Of a stretch of DNA of 64,000 nt, positions 56 to 40,900 are shown piece after piece; positions within the stretch are counted from its first letter, which is position 1, and the number at the start of each line of letters is the position of its first letter. Source of the DNA: Amoebophrya sp. A120. Its lineage: Eukaryota > Protista > Dinoflagellata. Both the position numbers and the translations under genes were made by a program. Where the stretch lies: NCBI GenBank assembly GCA_905178155.1, contig CAJINV010000015.1, positions 1-64,000 of the forward strand, in the 5' to 3' direction. The notes under the pieces were generated by a model, which was given only the letters and a program-made list of their open reading frames with translations, ran no database searches and was not told the DNA's origin.

Positions 56-3000
56 TCCGAAAGCCAGACCCCAGGCAAGACACGCTCTGAGTCCGCCCCC
101 CCTGCCCGACAAGTCCCGTAGTACGGGACTTGTTCCGGAACACGACCTGAGTCCACTGACTTGCCTGGTTGGCTTCTGTGGGGTTCCTGAACCCCAAACC
201 CTGGCCCACTGATCTTCGAAAACGAGACCCGAGGCAAAACACGCTCTGACACCGCCGGCACCCCCAAACCCTGCCCGACAAGTCCCGTAGTACGGGACTT
301 GTGCCGAAACACGACCGGAGTCCATTGATTTGCCTGATTGGCTTCAATGGGGTTCCTTAACCCCAAACCCTGGCCCACTGATCTTCGAAAGAGAGACCTG
401 AGGCGAGACACGCTCTGAGTCCGCCGATATCCCCAAATCCTGCCCGACAAGTCCCGTAGTACGGGCCTTGTGCCGAAACACGACCCGTGTCCATTGATTT
501 GCTTGATTGGCTTCCGTGGGGTTCCTTAACCCCAAACCCGGGCCCAATGATCTCCGAAAGCCAGACCCCAGGCGAGACACGCTCTGAGTCCGCCGATATC
601 CCCAAACCCTGCCCGACAAATCCCGTAGTGCGGGACTTGTGCCGACACACGACCTGAGTCCATTGATTTGCTTCATTGGCTTCAATGGGGTTCCTGAACC
701 CCAAACCCTGGCCCGCTGATCTTCGAAAGCGAGACCTGAGACAAAACACGCTCTCAGTCCGCCGATAACCCCAAACCGTGCCCGACAAGTCCCGTAGTGC
801 GGGACTTGTGCCGAAACACGACCGGAGTCCATTGATTTGCTTGATTGGCTTCTGTGGGGTTCCTTAACCACAAACCCTGGGCCACTGATCTCCGAAAGCG
901 AGACTCCAGGCAAAGCACGCGCTGAGCCCGCCGATATCACCAAACCCTGCCCGACAAGTCCCGTAGTGCGGGACTTGTGCCGAAACACGAGCGGAGTCCA
1001 TTGATTTGCTTGATTGGCTTCTGTGGGGTTCCTTAACCACACACCCTGGGCCACTGATCTCCGAAAGCGAGACTCCAGGCAAAGCACGCGCTGAGCCCGC
1101 CGATATCACCAAACCCTGCCCGACAAGTCCCGTAGTGCGGGACTTGTGCCGAAACACGAGCGGAGTCCATTGATTTGCTTGATTGGCTTCTGTGGGGTTC
1201 CTTAACCACACACCCTGGGCCACTGATCTCCGAAAGCGAGACTCCAGGCAAAGCACGCGCTGAGCCCGCCGATATCACCAAACCCTGCCCGACAAGTCCC
1301 GTAGTGCGGGACTTGTGCCGAAACACGAGCGGAGTCCATTGATTTGCTTGATTGGCTTCTGTGGGGTTCCTTAACCACACACCCTGGGCCACTGATCTCC
1401 GAAAGCGAGACTCCAGGCAAAGCACGCGCTGAGCCCGCCGATATCACCAAACCCTGCCCGACAAGTCCCGTAGTGCGGGACTTGTGCCGAAACACGAGCG
1501 GAGTCCATTGATTTGCTTGATTGGCTTCTGTGGGGTTCCTTAACCACACACCCTGGGCCACTGATCTCCGAAAGCGAGACTCCAGGCAAAGCACGCGCTG
1601 AGCCCGCCGATATCACCAAACCCTGCCCGACAAGTCCCGTAGTGCGGGACTTGTGCCGAAACACGAGCGGAGTCCATTGATTTGCTTGATTGGCTTCTGT
1701 GGGGTTCCTTAACCACACACCCTGGGCCACTGATCTCCGAAAGCGAGACTCCAGGCAAAGCACGCGCTGAGCCCGCCGATATCACCAAACCCTGCCCGAC
1801 AAGTCCCGTAGTGCGGGACTTGTGCCGAAACACGAGCGGAGTCCATTGATTTGCTTGATTGGCTTCTGTGGGGTTCCTTAACCACACACCCTGGGCCACT
1901 GATCTCCGAAAGCGAGACTCCAGGCAAAGCACGCGCTGAGCCCGCCGATATCACCAAACCCTGCCCGACAAGTCCCGTAGTGCGGGACTTGTGCCGAAAC
2001 ACGAGCGGAGTCCATTGATTTGCTTGATTGGCTTCTGTGGGGTTCCTTAACCACACACCCTGGGCCACTGATCTCCGAAAGCGAGACTCCAGGCAAAGCA
2101 CGCGCTGAGCCCGCCGATATCACCAAACCCTGCCCGACAAGTCCCGTAGTGCGGGACTTGTGCCGAAACACGAGCGGAGTCCATTGATTTGCTTGATTGG
2201 CTTCTGTGGGGTTCCTTAACCACACACCCTGGGCCACTGATCTCCGAAAGCGAGACTCCAGGCAAAGCACGCGCTGAGCCCGCCGATATCACCAAACCCT
2301 GCCCGACAAGTCCCGTAGTGCGGGACTTGTGCCGAAACACGAGCGGAGTCCATTGATTTGCTTGATTGGCTTCTGTGGGGTTCCTTAACCACACACCCTG
2401 GGCCACTGATCTCCGAAAGCGAGACTCCAGGCAAAGCACGCGCTGAGCCCGCCGATATCACCAAACCCTGCCCGACAAGTCCCGTAGTGCGGGACTTGTG
2501 CCGAAACACGAGCGGAGTCCATTGATTTGCTTGATTGGCTTCTGTGGGGTTCCTTAACCACACACCCTGGGCCACTGATCTCCGAAAGCGAGACTCCAGG
2601 CAAAGCACGCGCTGAGCCCGCCGATATCACCAAACCCTGCCCGACAAGTCCCGTAGTGCGGGACTTGTGCCGAAACACGAGCGGAGTCCATTGATTTGCT
2701 TGATTGGCTTCTGTGGGGTTCCTTAACCACACACCCTGGGCCACTGATCTCCGAAAGCGAGACTCCAGGCAAAACACGCGCTGAGCCCGCCGATATCACC
2801 AAACCCTGCCCGACAAGTCCCGTAGTGCGGGACTTGTGCCGAAACACGACCGGACTCCATTGATTTGCCAGATTGGCTTCCGTGGGGTTCCTTAACCACA
2901 CACCCTGGGCCACTGATCTCCGAAAGCGAGACTCCAGGCAAAACACGCACTGAGCCCGCCGATATCACCAAACCCTGCCCGACAAGTCCCGTAGTGCGGG

Positions 3001-3825
3001 ACTTGTGCCGAAACACGACCGGACTCCATTGATTTGCCAGATTGGCTTCCGTGGGGTTCCTTAACCACACACCCTGGGCCACTGATCTCCGAAAGCGAGA
3101 CTCCAGGCAAAACACGCACTGAGCCCGCCGATATCACCAAACCCTGCCCGACAAGTCCCGTAGTGCGGGACTTGTGCCGAAACACGACCGGACTCCATTG
3201 ATTTGCCAGATTGGCTTCCGTGGGGTTCCTTAACCCGAAACCCTTGCCCACTGATCTTCGAAAGCAAGGCCTGAGGCAAAACACACTCTGAGTCCGCCGA
3301 TATCCCCAAACCCTGCCCGACAAGTCCCATAGTTCGGGACTGGTGCCAAAACACGACCCGAGTCCATTGATTTGCTTGATTGGCTTCTGTGGGGTTCGTA
3401 AACCCCAAACCCTGGCCCACTGATCCTCGAAAGCAAGGCCGGACGCGAGACACGCCCTGAGTCCGCCGATACCCCCAAACCCTGCCCGACAAGTCCCATA
3501 GTACGGGACTTATGCCGAAACACGACCGGAGTCCATTGATTTGCCTGATTGGCTTCCGTGGGGTTCCTTAACCCCAAACCCTGGCCCACTGATCTTCGAA
3601 AGCAAGACCTGAGGCAGAACACGCTCTGAGTCCGCCGATATCCCCAAACCCTGCCCGACAAGTCCCATAGTACGGGACTTGTGCCGAAACACGACCTGAG
3701 TCCATTGATTTGCTTGGTTGGCTTCTGTGGGGTTCGTTAACCCCAAACCCTGGCCCACTGATCTTCGAAAGCAAGACCCGACACAAAAGACGCCCTGAGT
3801 CCGCCGATACCCCCAAACCCTGCCC
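56..3825. repeat. Subtelomeric tandem satellite, 169-bp unit, ~22 copies
   Basis: Identical spurious ORFs recur every 169 bp (864, 1033, 1202 ... 2216). Central copies are identical and flanking copies diverged. The unit contains CCCAAACCCT motifs and an ACAAGTCCCG..CGGGACTTGT inverted repeat. Confidence 0.97.
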
Positions 3826-4822
3826 GAGGACTGGATATGGAGAATTCAATCGAGGATGAGAACTTGAGAATGAGAACTGATCGAGTGATGATCGTGAATC
3901 AATGCGACAAATTCAAAAGTGGGTGAATGTCGGATTTTTGCAGGCGGAAAAATGCAGACGCCTCTACTATTTTCACAACAATCTGCTACTATTTTCACAA
4001 CAGATAGTTCTACTTCGAGCCCCTCGGCAGGCTAAAATAAAAACTACTGGTCGCGCACTTCTCGGTCGTTTTTCTGTTTTCTCAAAGCAACGCTTTCACA
4101 TTCAAAAAAGAATACTGATCCTTTCATCAAAAGTAACAAAGAAAAAACTTGAGTTTCGGCGTAAGACAGACCTTTCGAGGCTCTGCAGCACACGTAACCC
4201 ACAGCCAGGTGGGCAGTAGCAAACCTTCAAAAAAAGTAAAAACAAAAAACAAAACTTTCGACAACAGCAGCACTTTAAGTCAGGAATCTCTTTCCACAGA
4301 GGCATCTTTTCTCAAAAACACGTTTGTTAGTCTCTGCGACCGCTTTTACTTTTCTCTTTCGCGAACCTTCCTCTGTTTTCTCGTTTAGCTTTCAACTACC
4401 AAGCAAGGCTTTTCAACATTTAGACTTTCCCTGTCGATTTCAACTTTTTTAGCAGCAAAGCTTTTTCATTTTCGTTCTACCAGGAAGTTCTGTTTTTCTC
4501 AAGAAAGAGCTCAAAGTGGCTCACTCTAACTGGTATTTTTATTGAAATAGCGCTAGCACACACGTGAGAAGAAAACCTTCGCCCGGATTCCGTGTATCCA
4601 TTACCAACAACAACAACAATCTGTCCCGATGCTTATTGTAGAGGAGAAACAACGCAAAGAGATTCTGAATCTGGATCGCAATAGTGATGCTTTCGAGAAA
4701 TTTTTTCATTGTTTATTGGCGTGCCTGTACTCAAATGCAGGTCGTGTGATATCTACAGCCTGTGTCTGCGACTTCAGTACTGTCTATGTTCTGAAGACGA
4801 GTTTGTGGCAAGTGGGTTCTTC

Positions 4823-14279: not shown

Positions 14280-17200
14280 CTATCTTGCAACTTCTTTCTT
14301 ACAAAGTATACTATTTTTACAAGTTTTCTTAACCTTGGTGGTCACTGGTCCGAAGAATGGTAGTTGTAGTACAAGTGCGGGTGCGTCTGCCGGGGGTTGC
14401 GCGTCGGGTCGATCTTTCGCCGGCTCATCGGCTCGGGGGTATCCAGGGGTAGAGAATCGTTTTGATTTAGCGCTACAACACACATCCCACTTCTTTTTGT
14501 CATGCCTGTAGGTCACTGCCACTCAAATCAGATGCTTCGCGTTCGCATGACAAAAAAGCATGCATGGTGAAACAGAAATAAGTGTTCTTGCGATAAAGCA
14601 AGAACGATCACCGGCATTCTTTTTGATAATCGCACTGTGACACATACTCCTCGTAGATGAATAACCGCGCCATGGCCTCCAAGCGACGGTGTTTCTGTAT
14701 TTTTCATTAAGGAGTATATTGATCGCGTTTTGTCATAAGTACTCATCTATCAATCTGCAAGCTTTTCTCGCTCACGAGATGTTTCTGTCGCTGTCCATTA
14801 CAGCACAGGAGAAATAACCGCAAGTAAAAAAAGTACGTTCCGCAGGTGCAGAATAGAAGCGTCCAAAGCGGCCTGGTACACGACAAAGTTGAAGCGCTTG
14901 TTAGAGTTATCAAATGCAAATATATCTGGGTCTGGAAGATCGCCATGTTTGTCATGCATATTTTGCGTGGCCCATGATGTGTGTAATGCATGCCATAGCG
15001 TCACAGATTTTTAGGGGGCTTCCTAATGCCTATTCCGCATGAGAAATGCCGTCCACGAGTGGCACAAACTGGGCGCCTCTTGGTTGTCATGCAATACAGA
15101 TTTTTTTGGAATCCAAAAACAGCATCACAAGCTGCAACCCTCCAGACACAGACAAATTTGCAGTTGATAAGAATCGTGCTTCGGCAACATCTTGTACTGT
15201 TTCAGGTACTCCACGCACTGTCCCACATCCTGCGCTACACCATGTGCCTTGATCATCGCGGCGGTAGCATGGCTGGATAGTTTTGTGTACATTTATTTTT
15301 TGCAAAGTCCTAAATTTTGTTTGGGAAAGAGACTGCTACTTTCCTCACTATCAAGACAAATTCGACGTCACAACAGAAAAATCCCATACAATGTAGTCGT
15401 CGTTTTTTCATCCCAAGTACAACTGCCGAGAATTATGCAGCAAACAAGCCAGTACGAGTTCCGCGCCGGCAAGCGCTTGTAGATGTCCAGCATGGCCCCC
15501 ACGTACTTGGCCGGTTCATGGCACTTTTCGAAGCTGCGAATGATGAGGGTGAACAGTTTGGTTTTGATCTCCACCTGCATCTGGCGCAACCACTTCAGAA
15601 AATGCCACACCAGGTTGAAGGCCTCGAACGGGCGGTCGGTTTCCAGGGGCTTCATCAACTGCACAATCACGTCGTTCAGCAGCTTCTCGTCGATCCCGTA
15701 GGAGTTAATCCGCTTCGAGTAGTGCTTGATGATGTAGTCGAAGGTTTTGGGGTAGTCAATGAAATCCTGCTTCGTGTCGTAATAATAATCCTCGAACCTG
15801 ATACGATTTGTTTCATTTGTCGCAAAGAAATGATTTATTATTGTCCATGACAAAAAATGTCACCTCCCGTCAGGGTCGCAACGCTTCAGTACACTCCGAT
15901 CTATCAGACGTGAGGAGGGCAGTCGAGAGCATCCTATAAAACAGAAAAAGTACTGCTTCCGAGGCTTGGTCGGATCGATGAACATGTGCGGCTCGGCTGG
16001 TACACCCGGACCCGGGTCGTTCTGGTAGTTGCGCCGCTTCACCTCGTACCACTTTTCCTGCACCAATTGCTGCGCACTGGCACCACGATCTTGGGCAGCC
16101 AGCTGCTGCTCCATGCGCTGCGTCGGAGAACCGTTCCCGTTGGGTAACTTGCTGCCACCCTGCTGCTGCTGCATAGTCATGCTATCCTTGCTGGCGTAAT
16201 TATTGTTGTTCGTCGACGATGGCATGTGCATTTGCGAGCTGAGATGCTGATGCTGTCCCGCATTGTTCAACATCCCGATCGCCATTGCGGAAGCGCTCTG
16301 CGGGGCCGCAGACGGTCCTCCGCTTAACATTCCGCTCGCGGTGGCCGTCGAGCGATTGTTCGAGTTCGGCCCGCCCAAATGAATACTTTGTTGCTTTTCC
16401 AACCCGGCGGAGGTGCTCGTCGATCCATAGCCGTTCGCGTGCTGACCGTGCAACATGTTGTGGGAGTTGTGCTGGTGATAGTGGTTCGCGTTGTAGTTTG
16501 CCAAACCAGATTTGGTCAAGCCCATCGTGCCGATGGAACCAGAAGTGGTGTTGTGCAAATTTCCGTAGTTCATCGTGCCAGCAGTAGTCGCGTTGTTGGT
16601 CAGCCCCACAGATCCATGGAAAGGATTGCCGCTCATGCTGCTGTCATTGTTTCCGTTCATCGTTGTACCTGTTGCACCTGGCAGCTGGCTCGCCATAAAC
16701 TGCTGGTGTTGATGGAGATGATCCGTAGCTGCGGAAGCTGGTTCTTGGTGGGAAGTGGAAGCCAGATGTTGTTGAGCCAATGTCGCTTGTTTCGGCTGCT
16801 GCGCGGAAGACATGTTACTTCCGGGGGCACCTGGGGCCGCTTGAGCGCCAACTCCGTACATCCCTGCCGGAGCAGTGCCAAAAGCAGCACCGGCCGGGTT
16901 GAAGGCCGTCGGGGGCACCACACCCGCGGCATTCAAGAACGGAAACGAGGTGGCAGGAGCGCTCGCTGGGTGGAGCCTGAAAGTCGGATGATTCTTCCCA
17001 TTGCTCCGTGAAGGAGTTTTCAAATTTTTTTTGCAATATATGCATGACAAGATCGATTTTTTAGAATGGTACTCATTGTAGAGTAAAAACCTAAACCAAC
17101 AGCAAGAAATACAATCCCATTCCCAATCCCGGCGGCGGAACCTGAAACGGGTCGCAGTACGGAGCAAAGTAGTACAGTGGCGGATGGTACAAAGCGGCCA

Positions 17201-20200
17201 GGTCCATCGGGGCTTGATTAAACATTCCGGTCGTGTCTGGAGAGCCGAAAAGTCGTTTTTCACGAATTACGAATTTGGATAACAAAGAGAACGTAGGACT
17301 GGGCTCACAGAGAACCAATCCTCATCTTCCGATCTAAATCTATCGATGCACGAAACTAGCGCATGACAAATTTCAAACGACAAACCTTTACCAAAATGAG
17401 TTGAAGAGTTATTACCTTGTCCCGCCATACTGTTCCCCGCGACAGCAGCACGTTGCTGATGACCACCAGCTTGCGGGAAATTATTGCTCAAGCCCGCAAT
17501 TTCCACGTTCCTCTCTTCCGGATATGCATTGCAAATATGTCTGGGTCTGTAAGGTTGGAACTTGTGATGCTAACTTTGGACTCCTAAAAAAATCTGTATT
17601 GCATGGCCAGCAAGACGAGACGCCCAGTTTGTGCTACGCAGGGAGGGCATTTGTCATGCGGGATAGGCATCAGGAAGGCCTCTAAAAATATGTGATGCTA
17701 GATCACGCATTACAGACAATCCTGGGTCATGCAAAATATGCATGACAAACCTTGTAACCTTCCAGACCCAGACATTTTTGCATTTGATACCGGACTCGCA
17801 GTGACGAATTCCTTCTCCAGTTGCTGGTTTAGTAGCAGGTTTTTCTCCATGTTCTCCAGGTCCGGACTGGCCAGCGACACCGTTTCCTCGTTGATCGAGG
17901 TGCGCCGATAATTCATCTCCACATCCTGCTCTGCGCAAGAGATCTGGTCCGACAACCGCTTCTTCTTGAAACCGCCCGGCGGCGGGGGCGGCGGCGGACG
18001 GTTCGGTGGGGCGTGCGGCGCCGGGTAGTCGAACTCCAACAGCGTCTTGGCATGTTCCTTGTCGATATGGTACGAAAAAAGTGTTCGAGTTTTTACACAC
18101 TTGTTGTAACTTTAGCAACACAAAGTGGCTTGGTATCATGACGGAGAAAACCTGTAATGCAGAGATCATAAGGAAAAACACGCATACTAAACCGAGTTTT
18201 CTGAGGTGGATACTTACTTATCCGGCATGACAGAACTTGTCTCTCTTACTTCTTGTCTCGTAACACAATGTGTGATTGTAGCACTTTTTTCTTTTGGTAG
18301 TCGAAGGCAGCAAAGTACTGGTCCGCGTTCGGCATCTATCCAACAAAAAAACAACTTTAGGTGTAACTTTGTGATGCGCAACATGCGGGACATGCATGGC
18401 AGGGCCCATTCAAGTGCATTTTCACGTACTATCTGTGCGTGACAGGTTTTTGTTGCCATGCCAGACAGATTTGTAATGCTGTTTCTGCAAAAAAGTTACA
18501 CCTACAACGTTCTTTTGTTGAATAGCATCTGCATCGAGGGATCTCCACCCACTTATCCCAAAGAAAAAAGCTAGCGCATGATACTCATTTGCAATGCAAA
18601 AATCAAGACACAGGAAAATCTGTATTGCGTATCTTAAACGGCGTGCTATGCGCGATCCCCTTGAGAAATCTTTCTGTGAATAATTGATTCTATGCATTAC
18701 AAATGTGGCACCCGAGCTTTTTTCTCTTCGATACCGCTCCCAGATTGAACAACTGCTCCGAGGTATCGCAAGAAAAAACCATCTGTCTCAAACCTTTGCA
18801 GACTCAGCATGAAACGGAAAACCTGCGATGCGTCAGACACCAGGGAAAACACATAGGAAAGACGACCTTCTTGCATGTTCAGCATGACAAAAAATCTTCT
18901 CAAGGAAGTTGTGCATCACAATTTTAGACTGAGACAGTTTTTTCTCACGATACGACGACGTCAAATTCGCGGTGTCGAACACGCTTTGTTGATGCTCGCC
19001 CAGCAGTACCTGCAATGGCTCCATGTTCGATTCCGCGATCTTGATCGCCTCGTCGGCAGTTTGGGCTTTCTTCAGCAAATCCTTGCACTTCTGCAAAATT
19101 TCCTTCCCGGCCGGGGTCGTGTCCTTGGTGTGTTCCAGCTGTTTCGCCATGGACTGGATTTCGTCCGCGATCATCTTCATCGAGGAGTCATGCTGCGGAG
19201 CGGAGCCGCCGGTTGTCGGGGCGGGCAGTGCTTCTGGTATGAGGAGGGAAAATGGAAACGATCAAGGGGACTAGGTCGACAAAGCAAAAACGTTTATCAG
19301 AAATGCTAATCCTGATGCTGGCCTCATCAAAACACCAAAGGCGCGTTTAAATGGATTTGGAAGGAGCATCATGGTTGAGCATGACAAACAACCGCTTTGC
19401 CCGTTCCCTAGCCGAATGAACGCAAATCTTCACGAATGCGACTCCATATTCTGACTTCCGTCAGCACGGGAGGAAGGTTTCTGCGGATTCGCAGTCTGCG
19501 CGCCCGCGTTCGTCGGAACAGTCGGCATAGTGCCCATCGGTACCTGGTTCACGGGCACGCCCATCTGCGCGGGGTGAAACCCAAACGGCATACCGGGCAT
19601 CGCCATCGGCATCTGCATCGCGGCAAAGTCCGCACCGAACCCCATCGCGGAGGGACCGTAGGCCAGGTTGCCTCCTCCGGCCATCATCGGGAAGTTCCCG
19701 ATCTGCAGCAGCTCGGAAGCGCCGATTGGCTGGAAAAAACCGGTGGGTCCGTAAAATGGGTCCATAAACGCGGCCGGAGCGGCACCGGGTTGCTGAAACG
19801 GAGCTGATAAGGATTTTGATATTAGCGAATAGCGATGTAATTGTGGTATCAGAGATAATTGTCTGGTAGAATTACTGGTAAATGCAATAAGGTGCTAAGT
19901 ACAAGGAATTCGGGAGCAAAAAAACGACGTCAATCCATACTGCAGAATACCTCCCGTACCCGGATTCATGACGCCTGCGCCTGCCTGCGTCACCACGCCT
20001 TCCGGCTGCTGCAGAAACCCTTGCATCTGCGCCGCAAAAAACGCCGGACTGGGGGTCTGCACCGCGAACGGGGTGGTCATGTCGCCCTCCTGGAGCGCCG
20101 CAAAAGTGGTACTCCCGGTGATGCCGAATGGGTTGTATCGAAAGGAAAAACGTCCCCACCCCCTAGTCAAGTTGGGAATCTAGCAACACAAGTCTCCAAG

Positions 20201-21356
20201 TTTTGGGAGCTGTGCACGACAAATTTCCCTCTGCAGTGTAATGCTGGTTGGCAAGTGACGCCGCATGAGAAAGCCATTTTCTCATGCTCTTTACAGCATT
20301 ACAAATTCCAAAACACGACTGGAAATGCCTCTCATCATGGAGCTGCGCATTACAAATGTTCCTGTCATTGCGCATTTGCATGACAACTCTGGGGTGGGGA
20401 CGTTTTTACATAGGATAGGTTGGGCAACGTGATCATCTGGTTGTTCGGATTGTTATTTCCGTGGTCCCCCTCTCCTTTCTCGTGCTTCCCACCCACCTGC
20501 TGTTCGTCATGGATCAGCAGCTTCTGCGAGTAGTCAGCGTCGTCGTCAAACAGTTTCTCCTCTGTCATGCGCTTGGCGGTCTTCGCATCGGTGATCGGCA
20601 GGGCCGAGTGCTTGTTCACTTTCTGATGCTGGTTCTTGCTATTCTGCGACGCAGCTCCATTTGCCGTGGAGGGTTTGTTATTCATCATTCCGTTGGAGGT
20701 CGTGTTAGAGCTGTTCCCGTGCGCCAGAAACCCCTTGCGGTTGCCGTGGTTCCGTTCGCCAGCCGTGCCCGCAGTCGACGCGTGCCGATGTTGGCCATTC
20801 TTCCCCGATGTCTTTCCGTTTTTCAGCGTCGCCGCTTGGTGATCACCGTTTGCAGTCGTTTTCGAGGAGCCGTTCTTGTGGTTTTGGTTGTTATTCATCT
20901 TCTGCGCTGTTGTGCCGTTCGTGTTCAACGCCGGGCTCCGCTCGGCACCGCCCTTCCCACCGGCAACACTACCCTTCTTGCCACCAGCGACGGTGGTTGG
21001 GTGCAGGTTCGAAGTACCAGTTGCCGATTTGTTCCAGTTTGCTTTCTTTTTCTGCTCGTTTTCCGTGGACAGAAGCAGCAAGTGCCATCCAGACGGATCC
21101 GTTTCGCCGGCGGAACTTATCGTAGGAAAAAAGCGTTTTACTGTAAGGATTTTGCAATTTTTGTATTACGCACAAATTTGTTCATCTCTTTCATGACAAG
21201 GAAAACTTGTCATGCATGCTTAATAGGGGACAACACATTTAAAAGCCAAATGCTTTGCATGCGTAGCAAGACGAATGCGTCTGCGTTCCATTCTATGCAT
21301 CACAAGCTTACAGTAAAACAGCTTTTTCTTGCGATAGAAGTTTGCATTTGTTTCAT
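14280..21356 (-). CDS. Large multi-exon protein: low-complexity N/Q/G/P-rich N-terminal part and C-terminal PPR-like helical repeats; both ends uncertain
   Basis: Exons join in frame across 9 introners and several GT-AG introns (15798-15953, 19804-19950). PPR-like segments LFTLIIRSFEKCHE, ATAAMIKAHGVAQDVGQCVEYL and VVYQAALDASI. Two junctions near 17.0-17.4 kb were not resolved. Confidence 0.65.
14908..15169. mobile_element. Introner family A (262 bp)
   Basis: TIR TATCAAATGCAAATATATCTGGGTCTGGAAG; flanks AGAGT/AGAAT; frame restored (KHDS-NKRF). Confidence 0.9.
17523..17789. mobile_element. Introner family A, reverse orientation
   Basis: ~30-bp TIR; perfect TSD CCGGA; frame restored (TASP-EERNV). 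Confidence 0.92.
18066..18299. mobile_element. Introner family B-like
   Basis: TATGGTACGAAAAAAGTG...CACTTTTTTCTTTTGGTA; perfect TSD GTCGA. Confidence 0.88.
18337..18524. mobile_element. Introner family C
   Basis: TATCCAACAAAA..TAGGTGTAACTTT / AAAGTTACACCTA..TTTTGTTGAATA; perfect TSD GCATC. Confidence 0.9.
18554..18733. mobile_element. Introner (B-like ends)
   Basis: TATCCCAAAGAAAAAAGCT...AGCTTTTTTCTCTTCGATA; flanks CCACT/CCGCT. Confidence 0.85.
18764..18952. mobile_element. Introner family B-like
   Basis: TATCGCAAGAAAAAAC...GTTTTTTCTCACGATA; flanks CGAGG/CGACG. Confidence 0.87.
19238..19448. mobile_element. Degenerate introner
   Basis: TATGAG...CCATA; removing element plus 5 nt restores the frame (GSQ-K-ALPAP). 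Confidence 0.6.
20136..20417. mobile_element. Introner family E
   Basis: TIR core AAAAACGTCCCCACCCC; perfect TSD GGTTG; homologous to 33804-34082. Confidence 0.92.
21118..21336. mobile_element. Introner family B
   Basis: TIR TATCGTAGGAAAAAAGCGTTTTACTGTAAG; flanks GAACT/GAAGT; frame restored. Confidence 0.9.
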
Positions 21357-24300
21357 GTCCGCGACTTGGATGTCCTTGGTTTCTCGAGTGTGGAGGGAAA
21401 AAAGTAGACTTTGTGTTGCTATAGTGGTCGCTAAACAATAGACTACTAGTCTTCACGCATCACAACTTCACTACGGTATCCTCATCATGCCTGGTACAGC
21501 AACACAAAATCAACAGTGACGGTGCGTTCAATTCCCTAGTGCATGATGTCGTGGGCCTCCAAATCGTCCTCGTCAGTGTCGTGGTTTCCGGTAGAAGACG
21601 TGTCGGAGTTTCCGTCCTGATTTGTCGTGTTTTAAGTTCATCTACAAGTTCTACAACTTCATCATATGTGTGCATTACAAACAAGCACGGTCGTCGTTTA
21701 AAGGCACATGCAAAGTCACACAAAACAAACAAAACCTCACTTTTTCATACTCCCTTTATACCTGGCTACGAGTCATCAGGCGATCGCGGTGACGGCCGAA
21801 CGCTTCTCCAGACGAACGTTTGCGCAGATTCACGATCGGGTTGGCGTTCACGGACTCCGGGTATGGGCTTGCAAAATGAGAGGGGCCGAATTTACCAAAA
21901 GAAGGACAACTTATTGCTGGCGTAGTACATAGAGAAGGGGAAGAACTTGAGCTACCGTCTGACAAGCGCTGTAGAGCTTGGACAATCTAGATGCCATAAG
22001 GCGTTTAGTTCTTTCATGCAATGATCCTTTGATCTTAAAAAAGTTATCAATGACGGCGGCTGTGTTCACCACAGCATGTAACGCTCGGAGAAATTCGGAA
22101 GGAAGAAACATCATTTTTCTGGTTGATACCAAATTCGGAAGGCTAATCGTCGCGCCAGGTTTTTCGTCAGCGTGGAACCACATTTCTTCTTCCTCGGCGT
22201 ATCCGGACGAAATCTTGTGTCGGGTCAAAATTGAAATGCCATTCTGTCATCTATTTCGATGTCAACATGCAGACGATGGTACTCACTTCTTCCGCATAAA
22301 AAGTGGGCTATACATTCCGTCCTTCTGCACAGCAGGCACAGCACAAGCAACACACTCAATTTCAACATGTAGACACAAAATTTTTCCAAGGTTACGGTTT
22401 CCAGATCCAAGCCCGGCGGCGGTCCTTTGGGGCCGGTTTTCGTTGTGAATTTCCACGGCAAAGTATGGAGGAAAAACAAGCAATGCTGGAAATTGGCAAG
22501 GTCTATCTCAGTTCGGCAAATCATTCTTGTTTTACGCTTTGAGGGTACTATGCAGCAAATATCCTTCGCTATATCATCATGCAATAGGAACGAATTTCTC
22601 GCCTCTATTTCCCCGAATTCTAATTTTTCCTGTCGTACATCGATTTCGAAGCCTGCACTCCATCCTCCGTCAAAACGTCATCGTGGTCCTATTTTGAAAA
22701 TGAATTTGTCATGCTTTTCTTCAATCAAAAATATGCATATGTTTTTGAACTCGCATCTTGAGTTGTCATGCTGTAGGCATCAAAACACTAGAACGTCTTC
22801 TTACCTCCAACAACGTATTCCCCGCCCCGCAATACACCTTCGTCAAACCCGGATCCATCCCAGCCTTGTTGCGTGCAGCAGAAAAGGCCTCTCTTTGCTG
22901 CATCGCCACACGGTCGCGTTGGCTCGCCCGACCCGTCGCCACTGGTGATTATTCCTTTTTGCTGGGGATAGTTTCTAGCTTCCAACCTTTTTGAAAGGTC
23001 GTACTGCCACTTTAAAAGTGCAAACGCGACGACTTGATCCTTTCGTTCTACTGCAATCGAATTTGTGGAGAGGAAAAACTAGTGTGGCTGTGTCCCACAA
23101 TCTTTGGAAAACTGCCGAGCTTGTATTACTGGAAACAAATTATATTGGAGCAAACTTCCTGCTGCCCTTTTGTATCCCGTGAGCTTGAAACCTTGAAGAA
23201 GTAAATCGTCGAGTCGGCCTAGGACGACTCCATCAAAAATTATAGACATCAAGCTCCACCAGGGCTTCGAGAACCAATTCCATGCAAATTTTTCCTCAGT
23301 TTTCCAAAGGTCGGGCTAGGGACTACTACAGAATTGTGCGTGGATACTTATTTAAAACGAAGTTGAAAAGTAGCCGAAGTAGTCAGTACACTAATCCCAC
23401 TGCTTGTGCAGCTAGAAGGATATGCTCCGAACTACTCCTACTGCTACGAATTTTTGTTCATTTGATTCCTTTTGGAGATCACTCTCCTGTGCTGATTGAA
23501 AAATAATGTTTGCATGTAGCACTGTAATAGGTCACGGTTCAGAAATGGTCTTTTTTTCGCGCGTTCTTTTTTGTCGCACTACTTCATAGTACATAATTGT
23601 CAAAGCAATTTTGCGTCTCTGGCGCCATACTCACATCAGATACGGAAAAGAAAGAGTTTGCAAGAAATGTCGCTTCGCTCGAAGAACAATGTGCGCACAA
23701 AGATGGAATGGCAGGACTATGGGAGGAACACAAAAAAGCGTCCTCAGGTGGAATGAGTCGGCACTACTCCTGCGGCGGGACACGCGCAGGCAGTTGGTGT
23801 TAGAATTCTTTTTGAGAGCGACTCTCTAGCCTCTTTCGACCAACCGAATACATATCTTCCGCCGGCAAAAAGTGTTTCTTTTTCTGTGATACTTAGAATT
23901 TGCTTGTTCTACAACTGACGCGGCTACGCTAACAATTTCGCTACATTCATAACTGATTTTGCAGTTTTTACAATCTCCGGAGGATAAAACGCAGGCTAAT
24001 GTAAAGCTAGGAAGCGCCTCCACCAGAAGTCCCGGGTTTCGGGGGTACAGGACAATTTGTGTGTGAGATAAACTTGCAGTTTGCGACTTGCATTAACTTT
24101 TCGTGTAAGTGTGATTGAGCTTGTTGTAATCAAATATCGCTTCCGTAGTTCTAAGCTGCTACTCATTAATACTTATTTCCATTACGTGTTGGGGTGATAC
24201 ACAGCGAACGCTGTTTCCTCGTACGTCGGAGTCACGGTAAGATGAAGCGTCACCACTCTAATATCCGACGTTTTTTTTTTTTGAAAAAAATATTCACAGC

Positions 24301-24376: not shown

Positions 24377-27300
24377 CTACTTTTTCTTCTTCCCGAGCGA
24401 TTTCATGACGGGTGTCTTCTTCATCGGTTGCGCAGCTGCTTTGCCTTTCATCGCGGTTTTCATCGCCGCTGCCTTTCCCCCCGTTCCTGCCGTGTTGCCT
24501 TTCCCGCCCTTTGCGCCCGCTTTCGCTTTCGCAGCCGCCACTTTCGCTTTAGGCTTGGCTTTCGCTACTTTCGGCGTCGCGGCAGTAGTTGTACTTTTTG
24601 CCGACTTCATCGCTGCTTTCGCAGGGGCTGGGGCTGCCTTCATAGCGGACTTCTTCGCGGAAGGTTGCGTGCCGGTTTTCTTCGCAGACGACTTCTTCGA
24701 GTCCGACGGCTTTGAGCCTGCTGCAGCTTTGGTATTCATTTTCGCAGCTGTCGAGGAAGAAGACGATGCAGCTGCAGTCGTGGCGGTTTTCTTCATTGCA
24801 GCCACAATGGACGACGATGATATCAACTGCAAATATGTCTGGGTCTGGGAGATTGCGAGGTTTGTCATGCTAGTCGGGCATGGCTCTCAAGTCTGTCATG
24901 CACGCCACCCAAAAGCCACACTTCTCTGTCATGCAGAAACGCAGTTTGTCATGCAGATAGACAAGACTATAGCAACTCCAAAACTTCTCATGCTTGGCTG
25001 TCAATGAAGGCGTCCACATGATTCGCCAAACAGCATCACAAATTTCCAGACCCAGCCATATTTGCATTTGATAAATGAAGATTGTGCACCATTCGCAGAA
25101 CTACTACTGCCACCATTTTCTTTCTTTGCTCCCGACGATTTGGCGGCTGGTTGTTGTTTCATCGCGGCAGCAGAAGCCTTCATTGCTTTTCCTGCTCCTT
25201 CCTGCTTCATCGAAGTCGTAGAAGAAGAAGCCCCGCTGGACTTGTTGTTCGCAGCTGGTGTTTCTGCAGTCTGTTTCATGGCTTTGGAGGACGAGGATTT
25301 CATGGCGGTCGTTGCTCCTTGCGGCTCTTTATTTTCCTCTATCAGTTCCTGCTCAAAATCCTCTACTTTGACGGCGCCTTTCGTCCCGGTCTTTGATTTA
25401 CCACCCCCCGCAGAAGAAGTGGCTTTTTTCATCGCAGGAGCTACTTTCATCTTTGGCGCAGGCTTGGTCGGACCTTGGTCCGGCTCGATGTTGTCTTGCT
25501 GGTCGAGGGAAATCCCGCTAGTATAGTCCAGATCTCCTTGCGCCGGTTCTTCTTCCGTCACAGTGGCCTTCTTCGAACTAGCACTACTCTTCGTGGTTCC
25601 GCTTTTCTTCATCGATACCGTCGTCCCACCAGCTCCAGTTTTCGCCCTTTTCAAGTTCTTCGCGCCTTCTATCAAATGCAAAAGTGTCTGGGTCTGGAAG
25701 AATGCAAGATTTGTCATGCATATTTCTCATGACCCATGATGCCCGTAATGCTTGGCCTAGCATCGCAGACTTTTAGAGGGCTTCCTGATGTACCTTCCGC
25801 ATGAGAAATGCCCCGTCCGTGTAGCAAAAACCGCACCCCTCTTGCTGGTCATGCAATACAAACTGATGTAGAGTCGCAAAAACAGCATGACAAGTTGCAA
25901 TCTTCCAGACCCAGACATTTTTACAATCCATACCTTCCATCTTCGCGCCACACTGCTCCATCGCGTCTCTCTTGTTGTTCTTTTCCAAGGTCGGGATGCT
26001 CTGCTCCGGCTGGACAGCGGCAGGTGGTTGTAGTAGGGGAGCATCGACTGCCGTGCCGGACGATGCTGGAAGGAGTTGATGTGCCGCAGCTACCTTGTTT
26101 TCCACCTGATCATTAATTCCCTTGGATCCTACTTTTCTTTCTTTTGCAGATTCTTGTGAAGGTGCTTGTTTCTCCTGTGAAAAGTCCTCCACGTCCATCG
26201 CGTCCGGATCATCCTCTGCTTCCTGCACGTCTTCTCCTACAGGACGGTCCTCTTCCACCTCAACATCTGCGACCTGCATCTCTACGTCACCGACGATTTT
26301 TTCTTCCTTTGTTTCTTCTTTTCCGCCGCTGGACACTACAGGCGGGTGTACTAGAGAAACGTCTTTCACAGTCGCACCAGGTGCCGGCTCCAGTATGACG
26401 AGCTGGTCTTGCTGCAGCGCTGGCTTCGCGGTCGGACCAACTTGTTCCTCCAGTGCGGTTGTATTTTTTTTATGTACTTTTTGCCTAACAACTCCTTCGC
26501 TGTTGTTCGCAGCGTCCGCTAGTTCTGCCGCAGCTACACTCGCTCCAGCGACAATACTCCCAGTTTCGGCAACTCCAGCTCCCGCTTCCTCGGTACTCGA
26601 TAGTACGCCCTGCGCCGCTTTCTGGAGGACTTGCCGCTCCTCAAAGCGAACCATCGGCGCGTCTTCGAGTGGTGTGCCTGGGATGTCGAAAACATCTTCG
26701 ACCTGCGTGGTTTTGTCCCTTTCTCCTGCGTCCGGTGGCGATACTAGAGGATGTGCTGCGGTGGGACCAGGAGGCGGAAATGCCGTACTCGGTATTTGCG
26801 TCCTCTCCGCGTTTGATTCCCCTTCTTGTTTTTCCTTCGCCGCATCAGTGTCTACATCCATGAGTTCGTCATTCGGGTCTTTATCTGCCGCCAATGTTGT
26901 TTCTGCTGTGGGAAGATCAATGTTTTGGCCGGAAGATGAAGATGAACTACTCGACTGCATTCGAGCCGCATCTGCACTCGCGGCCGTTGGTCCTAATAAA
27001 TTCCCCGGAACCAGGGAAATCTTCTTGCTTGCCTGAGAACTTCTAGCGTACTTGCTCCCCCGGTCGCCGTTCGATTCCAAGCCACCGAGCGACTCGTAGG
27101 CGGAGAGAAAAGAATCGCGGCGATTTCGGTCGCTCGCGCAGGGTGAACCCTCGAGGGAGTGAAACGCGGTCAAAGGCGGAAAATGAGACTTGTCGCTGAG
27201 CTCGGAGAAGACATCTGTTTGGATATTTCAAGAAGCGTAGATCTGGTGTTCATTAAAAGACAGTGCAGCCTGCCTGTTCACGCGTGATGACAAAAAAACA

Positions 27301-37987: not shown

Positions 37988-40900
37988 CTACTCCCCCATG
38001 TCCACATCGGGGTCGGCACCCGGTTGTTTCTCCCGCTTTTCATCTCTCCGGACCCCACCAGTCCGCGCCGCCTCGTCGCCTTCCCCACTGTCCTATGCAT
38101 TGCAAATATGTCTGGGTCTGGAACGTAGAGCTTTGTCATGCACGTTTTGCATGGGCCATGACATCTGTGATGTATGTTTAGCATCACAAATTTTCTTAAG
38201 GCATCTTTATGCCCATTCCGCATGACAAATGCCCCGTCCGCGTAAGTAGCAAAAAGTGGATTCCTTTTGCTGCTGATGCAACACAGATTTTTCTAGAATC
38301 CAAATGCAGCATGACAAGTTGCACTTTTCAAGACCTAGACGTATTTGCAGTGCATACGTCCTCGCTATCCGTACTCGATGAAAAAACCGCGCACTCTTCC
38401 ATGTTCCGCTGCTCGAGTCTCTGGAAGGTTTTGTAGTACTTCAACAGGTTCATGTATCGTGAGAAAAAACTGTTTCACTGTCAAAAACTTGTGATGCAGA
38501 AAGTGTATTGCAGAAGTGTCTGTGTTGCTACACATGCAAGACATTGGAATTCCAGACGTGTTTTTCCTGAGGAACCTCGCATGGCAAATTTTCTTCATCA
38601 TGTAGACACCAAACTTGTGATGCAAGACTTGCAAAGTGCTTACAGTGAGACACGTTTTTCGTACGATATCATGGATTTCAGCTTTGTAGGTGTGTTTCCC
38701 TGCTCTTCCGGCGCTCCTCCTTGTCCTTCACCCTGCGGCTGGAGCAAATTTTTTGTCACGTGTGACTTGTGTTCCTGCAACTTCAGCGAGTCGATGAAAA
38801 GTGAGTGGAAACCGCTGGGCATCCGGACGGGAATTTTGATGCGGGTGATCGGGTATCAAGTGTAAAAATGTCTGGGACTGGAAGATTGGAACTTGTGATG
38901 CTAACTTTGGACTCTAGAGAAATCTGTATTGCACGACCAGCAAGAGGAGTCTAGTTTGTGCTACGCAGGGAGTTCGTTTGTCATGCGGAGTAGGCATCAG
39001 GAAGCCAGCTCAAAATCTGTGATGCGCGGTCGTGCATTACAGACATCCTGGGTCACGCAAAACATGCATGACAAATCTCAGAATCTTCCAGACCCAGACA
39101 CTTTTACATTTGATATCGGGTCTTTGTAGGAATCGGGGTTTTTCGCAATGAACTCCCCCGACACGTTATCGTACGAAAAAAGTGTTTCACTGTAATGATC
39201 TTGCAAGTTTTGCATCACAGGTTTGTAGTTCTACATCACAGGGAAAATTTGCCATGCGAGACTCCTATGGGAAAACACAGCTAAAAATCCATTGTCTTGC
39301 ATGTGTAGCAAGAGAAACACTTTTCAGATGCATTTTCTGCATTACAAGTTTACAGTGAAACGGTTTTTTCTTTGCATACACGTCCCAAATCATGAACTCG
39401 TTCTCCTTTCCCTATCCACAGTAAATTTCCTGTACACGTACAAATGCTGTCTCTGCATGACAAAATTTGCCTTCAATCCTAGTCTAGCATGACAAGTTGT
39501 ACACTGCAACTTAGCAAAATTTGTCATGCATTTTGTACATGTACGGGAAATTTACATTGCATATTCCGTCCAACGAGTGCACGAATCCCATAACGTAGCC
39601 GTCGTCCTCTGCCTGAAAATCCGCTGGTGAAGAACCCTGAGGACCTGCAGCAACTGCACCTTTACCATCCCGAAACTTCGGCTCGAAGTACATCTCCCCG
39701 CACCGCTGGTTTGGCCAGTCCGGCAGTTTGTAAAACGCGACCGCGGTTTGTTCTTCCAGGTCGTATTTCACGAAACCTTCAAAATCAAACCCCGCGGCCG
39801 GTTTCTTCGCGCGTCGCGCCTTCGTGGCGGGCGAGTTGACCTGCTTCTCCGTCGCACCGGTGGCCCGGTCAGCCGCGGGAAAGGTGGTCGCGCCGTAGAA
39901 GTACCGGTTTTTCTTTCCGGTGAATCTTTCGTTGATGCGTGGGAACTCCACCCCCATCAAACCCGGGCGGATAATCTCGCCCAACGCGGCGGTTTGCTCT
40001 TCTTTGGTTGTCGCGGGGAAGGGAAAAGATCTCGCAAGGCCCGTTTCGCTGAAGTACAGTGGTAAAATCTCCATGCTGACGTTTTCCTCACCTTCTGCTT
40101 TGTCCAGATGAAATACGAATTTCGTCAACTGCGGCACAAACGGGGTCGGCTTGCCATTCGGCGGCTTGTCATCTTCTTGTGTAGTGGTCTTTGATGCGCC
40201 AGCACCGGCTCCTCCCTGCTCCTTGTCCTTCCCTTTCTTGCTCCCACCGAGCTCCAGGCCGAGGTCCAGATTGAAATTCTGGTGAAACGCGCACCCGTAG
40301 GCGACGATGACGGCTTTTCCGTCCGCATCCAGCTCTTCCCACGCGTTCACAAAGTGGAACACCTGGTGCGCGCCGGGGATCTTGAACCAGCGAATGTTCT
40401 CATTGTTCTTCCCTGCCGAGTCCGCGGATTTCGGTAAAACGCCGTAATACGCGTTGCAACCGTTGTCGAACTGGTAGGGCGACTTGCCCTCGGCACACTT
40501 CTGGCCGTCGAAGAACAGCGGGAGGTAGGGGAAAACGACAAAATTCTTCGTGATCAGCGAGTCGTGCATCATCACCGGCTTATTCACAACCGCTTCGTCC
40601 TCGCCGACGTCATATGCAGCGAAAAAACAAGTGTCGCACTCGTATTAATCGCAATCATGCATGACAAATCTTGTTTTCTTCCTGAATCAGCATGACAAAC
40701 TTGAGTTTTCTTCATGCAAAAATTTATCATGCGACTTATACCAGTACGATCATTTTGTAATGCATACATCCACGGTCTTGACAATTTTCCCGGTCTCGCC
40801 ACTGATCACGGAGTAGGACAGGTACGGTGGCGCGGTGATGTGGTAGGCGAAAACGTACATGTCATTGGTGTCCGGATCAATCTTCGGATGCGCGTGCATC

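What the first reader, a model, noticed from the sequence alone, without database searches (positions are those of the whole stretch)
18061..18957. Four different introners in a row leave three 24-32-nt micro-exons that reassemble in frame
Seen: elements 18066-18299, 18337-18524, 18554-18733 and 18764-18952 are separated by 37, 29 and 30 bp. Applying the +5 rule yields ..TANLTSS-EQLFNLGAG-GDPSMQMP-NADQYFAAFD-KEHAKTLLEFDYP.., with no stop and in frame with both flanking ORFs. This is strong internal evidence for the rule. It also implies each left end pairs with its own right end despite similar neighbouring ends, which may favour family diversity in TIR sequence.
Basis: seen in the sequence. 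Interest (0 to 1): 0.8.

Follow-up and report, generated by a model that had tools for sequence, protein, structure and literature searches.

The report
Four transposon introns leave three micro-exons
Four short transposon-like inserts packed into about 110 bases of a protein-coding gene are each missing, together with one copy of a 5-base landing duplication, from an assembled transcript that is likely RNA; they match a published kind of odd-ended intron from the marine parasite Amoebophrya, and the junctions suggest the cell likely cuts them at fixed distances from their ends rather than by hairpin pairing alone.

Summary
Observation confirmed. Four 180-234-nt elements with terminal inverted repeats and 5-nt flanking direct repeats (5/5, 5/5, 4/5, 4/5) interrupt a minus-strand gene. 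A 2807-nt contig of run X4 (RNA by guess; it also lacks GT-AG introns) skips element+5 nt at all four, keeping micro-exons of 32, 24 and 25 nt. The reading frame alone proves little: 2187 of 6561 offset combinations stay open. The elements match the published Amoebophrya A120-type introners (PMC7789003), so the kind is known; the scan noted similar introns in other genomes, none on this DNA. What this adds: 6 of 6 junctions with mismatched repeats keep the upstream copy, and only one register (1 nt before the 5' TIR, 4 nt past the 3' TIR) fits 11 of 11 junctions, giving N-TA donors like the local GTA donors; just one junction separates it from the next register. A second micro-exon cluster lies at 38455-39563.

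The parts
18066..18299 (-). Introner D (234 nt, TIR to TIR); likely intron 18062-18300; 5-nt direct repeats 18061-18065 and 18300-18304 (5/5)
   Evidence: joint 18060>18300 skips 239; weakest terminal stem of the four
18337..18524 (-). Introner C (188 nt); likely intron 18333-18525; direct repeats 18332-18336 and 18525-18529 (5/5)
   Evidence: joint 18331>18525 skips 193
18554..18733 (-). Introner B (180 nt); likely intron 18550-18734; direct repeats 18549-18553 and 18734-18738 (4/5; transcript keeps the upstream copy, giving Ala rather than Val)
   Evidence: joint 18548>18734 skips 185
18764..18952 (-). Introner A (189 nt); likely intron 18760-18953; direct repeats 18759-18763 and 18953-18957 (4/5; upstream copy kept); relatives at 38455 and 39167
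   Evidence: joint 18758>18953 skips 194
18301..18332 (-). Micro-exon, 32 nt (18300-18331 in the next register)
18526..18549 (-). Micro-exon, 24 nt (18525-18548 in the next register); skipping it would stay in frame
18735..18759 (-). Micro-exon, 25 nt (18734-18758 in the next register)
17790..18061 (-). Downstream flanking exon (about 271 nt)
   Evidence: contig piece 17790-18060
18954..19232 (-). Upstream flanking exon (about 280 nt); no family above its curated cut-off, no homologue found
16620..21900 (-). Host gene, part examined: 14 exons, 9 TIR-type and 4 GT-AG introns; open for 902 codons without a stop; low-complexity protein of no identified family; both ends not mapped
21385..21539 (-). 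Decayed introner whose junction has no ambiguity: cut 1 nt before the 5' TA and 4 nt past the 3' end; the one junction that fixes the register
   Evidence: joint 21384>21540, both=0
19234..19449 (-). Decayed introner (19238-19448), weak stem (-8.4 kcal/mol for 30-nt arms), still removed as element+5
38455..39563 (-). Second cluster: four introners (38455, 38854, 39167, 39413) with 46- and 29-nt micro-exons and a 180-nt exon at the 3' end of a carotenoid-oxygenase (PF03055) gene

Best explanation
Four non-coding transposon-like elements, each flanked by a 5-nt direct repeat that is likely a target-site duplication, are missing as element+5 nt from an assembled transcript that is likely RNA, and are likely removed by a relaxed spliceosome that cuts at fixed distances from the element ends. 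Shown: the anatomy, the element+5 removal, the three micro-exons, retention of the upstream repeat copy wherever the copies differ. Inferred: insertion by a DNA-level transposase or integrase making a 5-nt staggered cut (no enzyme found here); four separate insertions, since the interiors differ; a 5' cut one base before the TIR so that the TIR's first bases TA supply intron positions +2/+3 as in the gene's ordinary GTA donors while +1 is whatever the target gave; a 3' cut four bases past the TIR with no AG, placed by distance from the U-run/ATA end. Because 4 nt of the upstream copy and 1 nt of the downstream copy are kept, any insertion site is restored exactly. End pairing likely helps, and each 5' end likely takes the first 3' end transcribed, but stable own-end pairing is neither required nor decisive. 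Confidence is about 0.95 that these are spliced introner-type introns and about 0.6 for the register and ruler.
For: Element+5 removal at 11 of 11 TIR-element junctions seen in contigs. The same gene's contig joints include 4 GT-AG introns, and the spliced frame is open for 902 codons. Word shares 0.38-0.42 in X1-X4 against 0.34 expected for spliced RNA and 0.92-0.93 in X5/X6. DNA-like run X5 has a contig running unbroken through element 38455. Upstream copy kept in 6 of 6 junctions with mismatched repeats; register 4 fits 11 of 11, register 5 fits 10, register 3 fits 8, registers 0-1 fit 5. In register 4 all 11 begin N-TA (G 4, C 5, A 2) and 5 of 5 local canonical introns begin GTA. In Table S4 of PMC7789003 the 9 of 9 sites labelled predominant in A120 have T at +2 with G, C, A or T at +1, and the text puts four nucleotides of the commonest direct repeats upstream of the 5' end. 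In the second cluster +5 gives the best score against four bacterial carotenoid oxygenases (33.8 bits, against 26.1 and 24.6 for +8 and +2). Weak-stem elements (18066, 19238, 21389: -8 to -12 kcal/mol) and the cross-pairing pair 39167/38455 are cut at their own ends.
Against: The four junctions rest on one contig of one run whose RNA status is a guess; contigs drop rare forms, so skipping is not excluded. The three raw-read RNA runs gave no test (0, 1 and 86 reads laid, none wholly on the stretch). Only one junction (21389, a decayed element whose ends I placed by analogy with the TAT-N7-AAA motif) separates register 4 from 5. The Table S4 rows cover only about 20% of A120 introns and depend on the aligner's choice within repeats; the paper reports variable splice positions and did not detect U1 snRNA. 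Three of the four elements do form strong predicted own-end stems. No transposase, lariat or spliceosome dependence was tested. Folding results are equilibrium predictions.
Confidence: 0.72

Rival explanations
1. Hairpin-defined removal: the TIR stem brings the ends together and itself sets both cuts, so each end must pair with its own partner and neighbouring elements are selected to differ (the first reader's view; akin to the model drawn in PMC7789003 and to euglenid nonconventional introns).
For: Own-end pairing averages -25.1 kcal/mol against -9.6 for skip-geometry cross pairs at 30 nt; A, B and C pair with their own ends in the folded block; no AG at the 3' end in 10 of 11 junctions; within-gene cross-pairing is slightly weaker than between genes at 30 nt (p 0.07).
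Against: Element 18066 and two decayed elements have weak stems yet exact junctions; 39167/38455 and 41538/38854 are same-family neighbours with cross-pairing equal to or better than their own, and contigs keep the exons between 39167 and 38455; no significant TIR diversification within genes at any arm length (p 0.07-0.31; 0.91-0.96 for the four).
Confidence: 0.2
2. Non-spliceosomal removal, by a dedicated endonuclease and ligase acting on the element ends.
For: 0 of 11 junctions are GT-AG in register 4 and both terminal bases vary freely; U1 snRNA was not detected in A25 or A120 (PMC7789003).
Against: Positions +2/+3 equal those of the local canonical donors; the paper finds 83 of 89 spliceosomal proteins and IR/DR structure in 15% of canonical A120 introns; a tunicate splices non-canonical introns with a modified spliceosome (PMC13326754, abstract only).
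Confidence: 0.06
3. The contig comes from an element-free allele, strain or retro-copy, and the elements are not spliced at all.
For: Precise absence of element plus one repeat copy is what an empty site looks like; X4 is RNA only by guess; no DNA run was laid on the four elements themselves.
Against: The same contig set lacks four GT-AG introns too; mismatched repeats resolve with a 5' bias in 6 of 6 cases; unspliced elements carry stops or shift the frame; X5 runs through such an element as DNA.
Confidence: 0.02

Closest known systems
Introner elements (IEs) of Amoebophrya sp. A120 (Farhat et al. 2021, PMC7789003; seen: abstract, sections 10, 12, 16, passages of 11 and 32, supplement legends S19-S25 and Table S4 text, no figures)
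   Same: Non-canonical introns of about 200 nt with terminal inverted repeats starting TAT-N7-AAA, direct repeats of 3-5 nt across the boundaries (legend S19 names 5 bp), many unrelated families, mixed with GT-AG introns in one gene, no transposase inside.
   Different: The paper leaves the border position unknown and calls it variable; here a constant 5-nt repeat and one register fit 11 of 11 junctions. It proposes hairpin-aided joining; here weak-stem and cross-pairing cases argue that pairing is not decisive. It does not treat micro-exon clusters in the parts I read. Identity of this window with the A120 assembly was not tested.
TIR DNA-transposon introners of Micromonas, Aureococcus, Symbiodinium and others (PMC9860276, PMC12130899, review PMC11282704; passages seen)
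   Same: MITE-like elements with TIRs and target-site duplications, removed together with one duplication so that the mRNA is restored; a splice site partly recruited from the duplication.
   Different: In the examples given, splice-site bases such as GY and AG come from the element or the duplication; here neither G at +1 nor AG is needed.
Euglenid nonconventional introns and Fritillaria non-canonical introns (review PMC11282704, passages; PMC13326754, abstract)
   Same: Non-canonical ends, TIRs, duplication-like repeats at the junctions, likely MITE origin.
   Different: Different end motifs (CAG/CTG at fixed positions; AG-AC/AG-AT); unrelated lineages.

Membership tests
Amoebophrya introner elements (PMC7789003) | Intron with ends other than GT-AG | tested here: met
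   None of the four is GT-AG or GC-AG in any register compatible with the contig (read from the repeats and registers); register 4 gives GT-TC, GT-TG, CT-TG, CT-GA.
Amoebophrya introner elements (PMC7789003) | Inverted repeats of 8-20 nt at the two ends | tested here: met
   14, 14, 16, 16 of 20 terminal bases complementary; predicted terminal stems, weak for 18066.
Amoebophrya introner elements (PMC7789003) | Direct repeats of 3-5 nt across the exon/intron boundaries | tested here: met
   5/5, 5/5, 4/5, 4/5.
Amoebophrya introner elements, A120 type | IR motif TAT, seven variable bases, then at least three A | tested here: met
   6 of 8 ends match strictly; one starts TAC and one has its A-run shifted (motif).
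Amoebophrya introner elements (PMC7789003) | Repeated in the genome (family membership) | tested here: inconclusive
   18764 and 18066 have relatives among 8 other window elements (scores 72, 72, 52 against shuffle maxima of 27 or less); 18337 and 18554 have none in the window; no genome held.
Amoebophrya introner elements (PMC7789003) | Junction supported by at least 3 RNA-seq reads | tested here: inconclusive
   One contig at depth 7.63 in a run that is RNA by guess; raw-read runs did not cover the gene.
Amoebophrya introner elements (PMC7789003) | Host is Amoebophrya A120 or A25 | not tested
   Inferred only from the end motif and from the genes examined lying on one strand.
MITE / non-autonomous TIR DNA transposon | TIRs, constant-length target duplication, no coding capacity | tested here: met
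   Flank match 0.82 at 5 nt against 0.17-0.34 at other lengths over 17 elements (part of the set was picked with a 5-nt filter); stops in at least two of three frames of each of the four.
MITE / non-autonomous TIR DNA transposon | Mobilised by a cognate autonomous transposase | not testable with these tools
   No genome held; PMC7789003 found no transposase in A120, while PMC12130899 assigns A120 introners to several transposon classes.
Spliceosomal intron | Lariat with branch point; dependence on snRNPs | not testable with these tools
   No branch consensus at a fixed distance: the sub-terminal motif lies 45-183 nt from the 3' cut or is absent.

The most novel reading that the evidence does not exclude
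These introns follow one exact rule that the literature left open: a spliceosome that needs neither G at +1 nor the 3' AG reads only the transposon's own ends, cutting one base before the 5' TA and four bases past the 3' end, so a transposon with a 5-nt duplication can land at any sequence, even 24 nt from another copy, and be erased without trace and without relying on its hairpin.
Probability: 0.45. Interest if true: 0.72.

Novelty: already known. Interest (0 to 1): 0.38.

Why it matters
The kind of element is published, and clusters like this are expected in a genome with tens of thousands of such introns (roughly 6-250 runs of three exons of 32 nt or less under a simple random model). The value is in the test it offers. 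How these introns are cut without GT-AG is open in PMC7789003. Mismatched target duplications read out the true cut position from ordinary RNA-seq, and dense or same-family clusters separate end-reading from hairpin pairing. A fixed rule would also repair gene models: a catalytic-region motif of the neighbouring carotenoid oxygenase is assembled across micro-exons that standard gene finders would likely miss.

Tried and rejected
Open frame as proof of +5: rejected. Selection for TIR diversity among neighbours: not supported. Sub-terminal motif GCATNACA as branch point: no fixed distance from the 3' cut, absent in some elements; more likely a sub-terminal repeat; it is enriched in the window (134 hits against a shuffle mean of 31). 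Clustering beyond chance: about 0.004 per position at this gene's exon density, chosen after the fact, and a second cluster exists in the window; not shown to exceed chance. Exon skipping: none listed among 15 of 17 joints shown, but contigs cannot show absence; raw-read runs X7-X9 did not cover the gene; no listed holder is on record as RNA. The joint 17605>17762 was dropped as likely from another copy of a repeat family. The second read-laying was swamped by repeat joints from X5 (15 of 128 shown), so only two new junctions and one 76-letter gap could be read from its table of pieces. Host protein: no homologue for the upstream exon among longer proteins (294 candidates, none at E 0.01 or better), no Pfam family above cut-off for 4 exon pieces, Atlas gave no result. 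Rfam: 0 matches in 17000-22000. No whole genome held. Literature: no paper held 'dinoflagellate'+'introner'+'microexon'; searches listed no paper whose title points to the Amoebophrya splice register; Roy et al. 2023 (Curr Biol) was seen only as cited, and the figures of PMC7789003 (Fig. 3, S19-S25) and the datasets of PMC12130899 were not seen and may already show the register.

Full report
Observation. The four elements lie at 18066-18299, 18337-18524, 18554-18733 and 18764-18952, separated by 37, 29 and 30 bp. Each is A+T-richer than the exons (GC 0.38-0.41), has imperfect terminal inverted repeats (14-16 of 20 bases) and is flanked by a 5-nt direct repeat matching 5/5, 5/5, 4/5 and 4/5 (joint chance about 2e-10). 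The host gene is on the minus strand. That alone is weak: offsets 2, 5 and 8 all keep the frame, as do 2187 of 6561 independent combinations and a skip of the whole 81-nt block.

Transcript evidence. Of four runs laid on 15500-22500 only X4 covered the gene. It shows joints skipping 239, 193, 185 and 194 nt, each element+5, at the depth of one 2807-nt contig that has 81 letters between the two flanking exons. Of the 15 joints shown (2 not shown), 9 are TIR elements, 5 are GT-AG introns and 1 was dropped as a likely repeat artefact. Joining the exons gives 902 codons without a stop. X4 is RNA by guess, but loss of the GT-AG introns and the word shares (0.38-0.42 for X1-X4 against 0.34 expected for spliced RNA, 0.92-0.93 for X5/X6) fit spliced RNA. 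X5 may be the source of the assembly and is not independent. The raw-read runs gave no test, so rare skipping remains unexamined.

Where the cuts fall. Where the two repeat copies differ, the transcript shows which was kept. Over 11 junctions (9, 2) the skip equals element+5 in 11 of 11, and 6 of 6 junctions with mismatches keep the upstream copy. Keeping 4 nt of the upstream copy fits 11 of 11, 5 nt fits 10, 3 nt fits 8. The single junction that separates 4 from 5 is the decayed element at 21389-21538, whose ends I placed by analogy with the end motif. In that register every intron starts N-TA and ends four bases after the 3' TIR with no fixed dinucleotide (AG in 1 of 11), while 5 of 5 local canonical introns start GTA and end YCAG. 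Table S4 of PMC7789003 agrees: the 9 sites labelled predominant in A120 all have T at +2 and varied +1, though they cover only about a fifth of introns and the paper states that no clear signature was found.

Pairing. In the folded block, A, B and C pair with their own ends (21.9, 14.1, 21.1 expected pairs) but D does not (0.69), and B's 5' arm pairs better with D's 3' arm than D's own does (-14.5 against -11.7 kcal/mol). Two decayed elements with stems of -8.4 and -10.6 are also cut exactly. In the neighbouring carotenoid-oxygenase gene (PF03055, E 7.5e-36) the same-family elements 39167 and 38455 are predicted to pair with each other rather than with themselves, which would drop 226 nt; yet X1 joins 38449 to 38669 and X4 keeps 38669-38847 plus 76 letters, the length expected for the two micro-exons. 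Cross-pairing in skip geometry within genes (n=57) is not significantly weaker than between genes (n=126), p 0.07-0.31, and among the four it is stronger. So the claim that pairing favours diverse TIRs is not supported. The simplest reading, inferred, is that each 5' end is committed to the first 3' end transcribed, with ends read by sequence and distance.

Independent check of +5. In the second cluster, +5 at three elements gives the best match to a profile of four bacterial carotenoid oxygenases (33.8 bits; 26.1 for +8, 24.6 for +2, 20.7-23.0 for the rest) and assembles the C-terminal proline-arginine and GFH motif across the micro-exons.

How unusual is the cluster. A random model gives about 0.004 per position at this gene's exon density and 6-250 such runs among the 66,565 introns reported for A120. 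The window holds a second cluster. In X5, 10 of 15 joints shown link the right end of one element to the left end of another, and 6 of 12 rows with listed spacers show 4-39 letters between such ends; these come from other loci and suggest that closely spaced elements recur. The table lists only spacers up to 40 letters, so it says nothing on enrichment.

Comparison. The anatomy matches the A120-type introner elements of PMC7789003: IR motif TAT-N7-AAA (6 of 8 ends strictly), direct repeats of 3-5 nt, non-canonical ends, many families. The organism is inferred from this match only. It works like a TIR-transposon introner that recruits part of a splice site from its duplication (PMC9860276; PMC11282704), but needs neither G at +1 nor AG. 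Earlier notes of this scan describe similar introns in other genomes and none on this DNA; I did not check them.

Verdict. Real, spliced and of a known kind. The micro-exon cluster is a vivid but expected case. The part worth following is the register and the evidence against pairing as the determinant, which rests on few junctions from contigs and may already be visible in figures that I could not see. Interest 0.38.

Noticed in passing
window 38455-43474: Carotenoid-oxygenase (RPE65 family) gene on the minus strand with at least seven TIR elements; its C-terminal motif spans 29- and 46-nt micro-exons; long low-complexity inserts between conserved blocks.
   Followed up: partly
window 17523-17789, 38094, 38854-39115, 41538-41799, 43481, about 24820: One element family with long, near-perfect TIRs recurs several times in the window and draws very many contigs in X5; likely young and abundant.
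   Followed up: partly
window 17756-17794: Raw RNA run X7 has about 85 reads matching only this TIR end at 90-95% with other flanks: a related element present unspliced in that sample's RNA, from another locus or strain.
   Followed up: no
window-wide, e.g. 17563-17741, 42763-42982, 43522-43708: A sub-terminal motif TGTNATGC / GCATNACA, often pointing inward from both ends and at position 33 from the 5' end in 5 of 17 elements, is shared by otherwise unrelated families; a candidate transposase-binding repeat.
   Followed up: partly
joints in X5, table 5c (41799>38092): One DNA contig shows a right end followed by a left end only about 6 bases later; if inside a gene this would leave an exon of about 1 nt.
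   Followed up: no
window 15795-15954, 16976-17113, 17236-17416, 19803-19951, 21616-21762: All five canonical introns start GTA and end TCAG or CCAG; two have TA just before the last four bases, as the introners do, so some may be old introners.
   Followed up: no
window 864-3900: ORF ends recur with a period of about 169 nt, pointing to a long tandem array.
   Followed up: no
window 24380-24800: Lys/Ala-rich low-complexity coding stretch on the minus strand, histone-H1-like in composition (read; label from recall).
   Followed up: no
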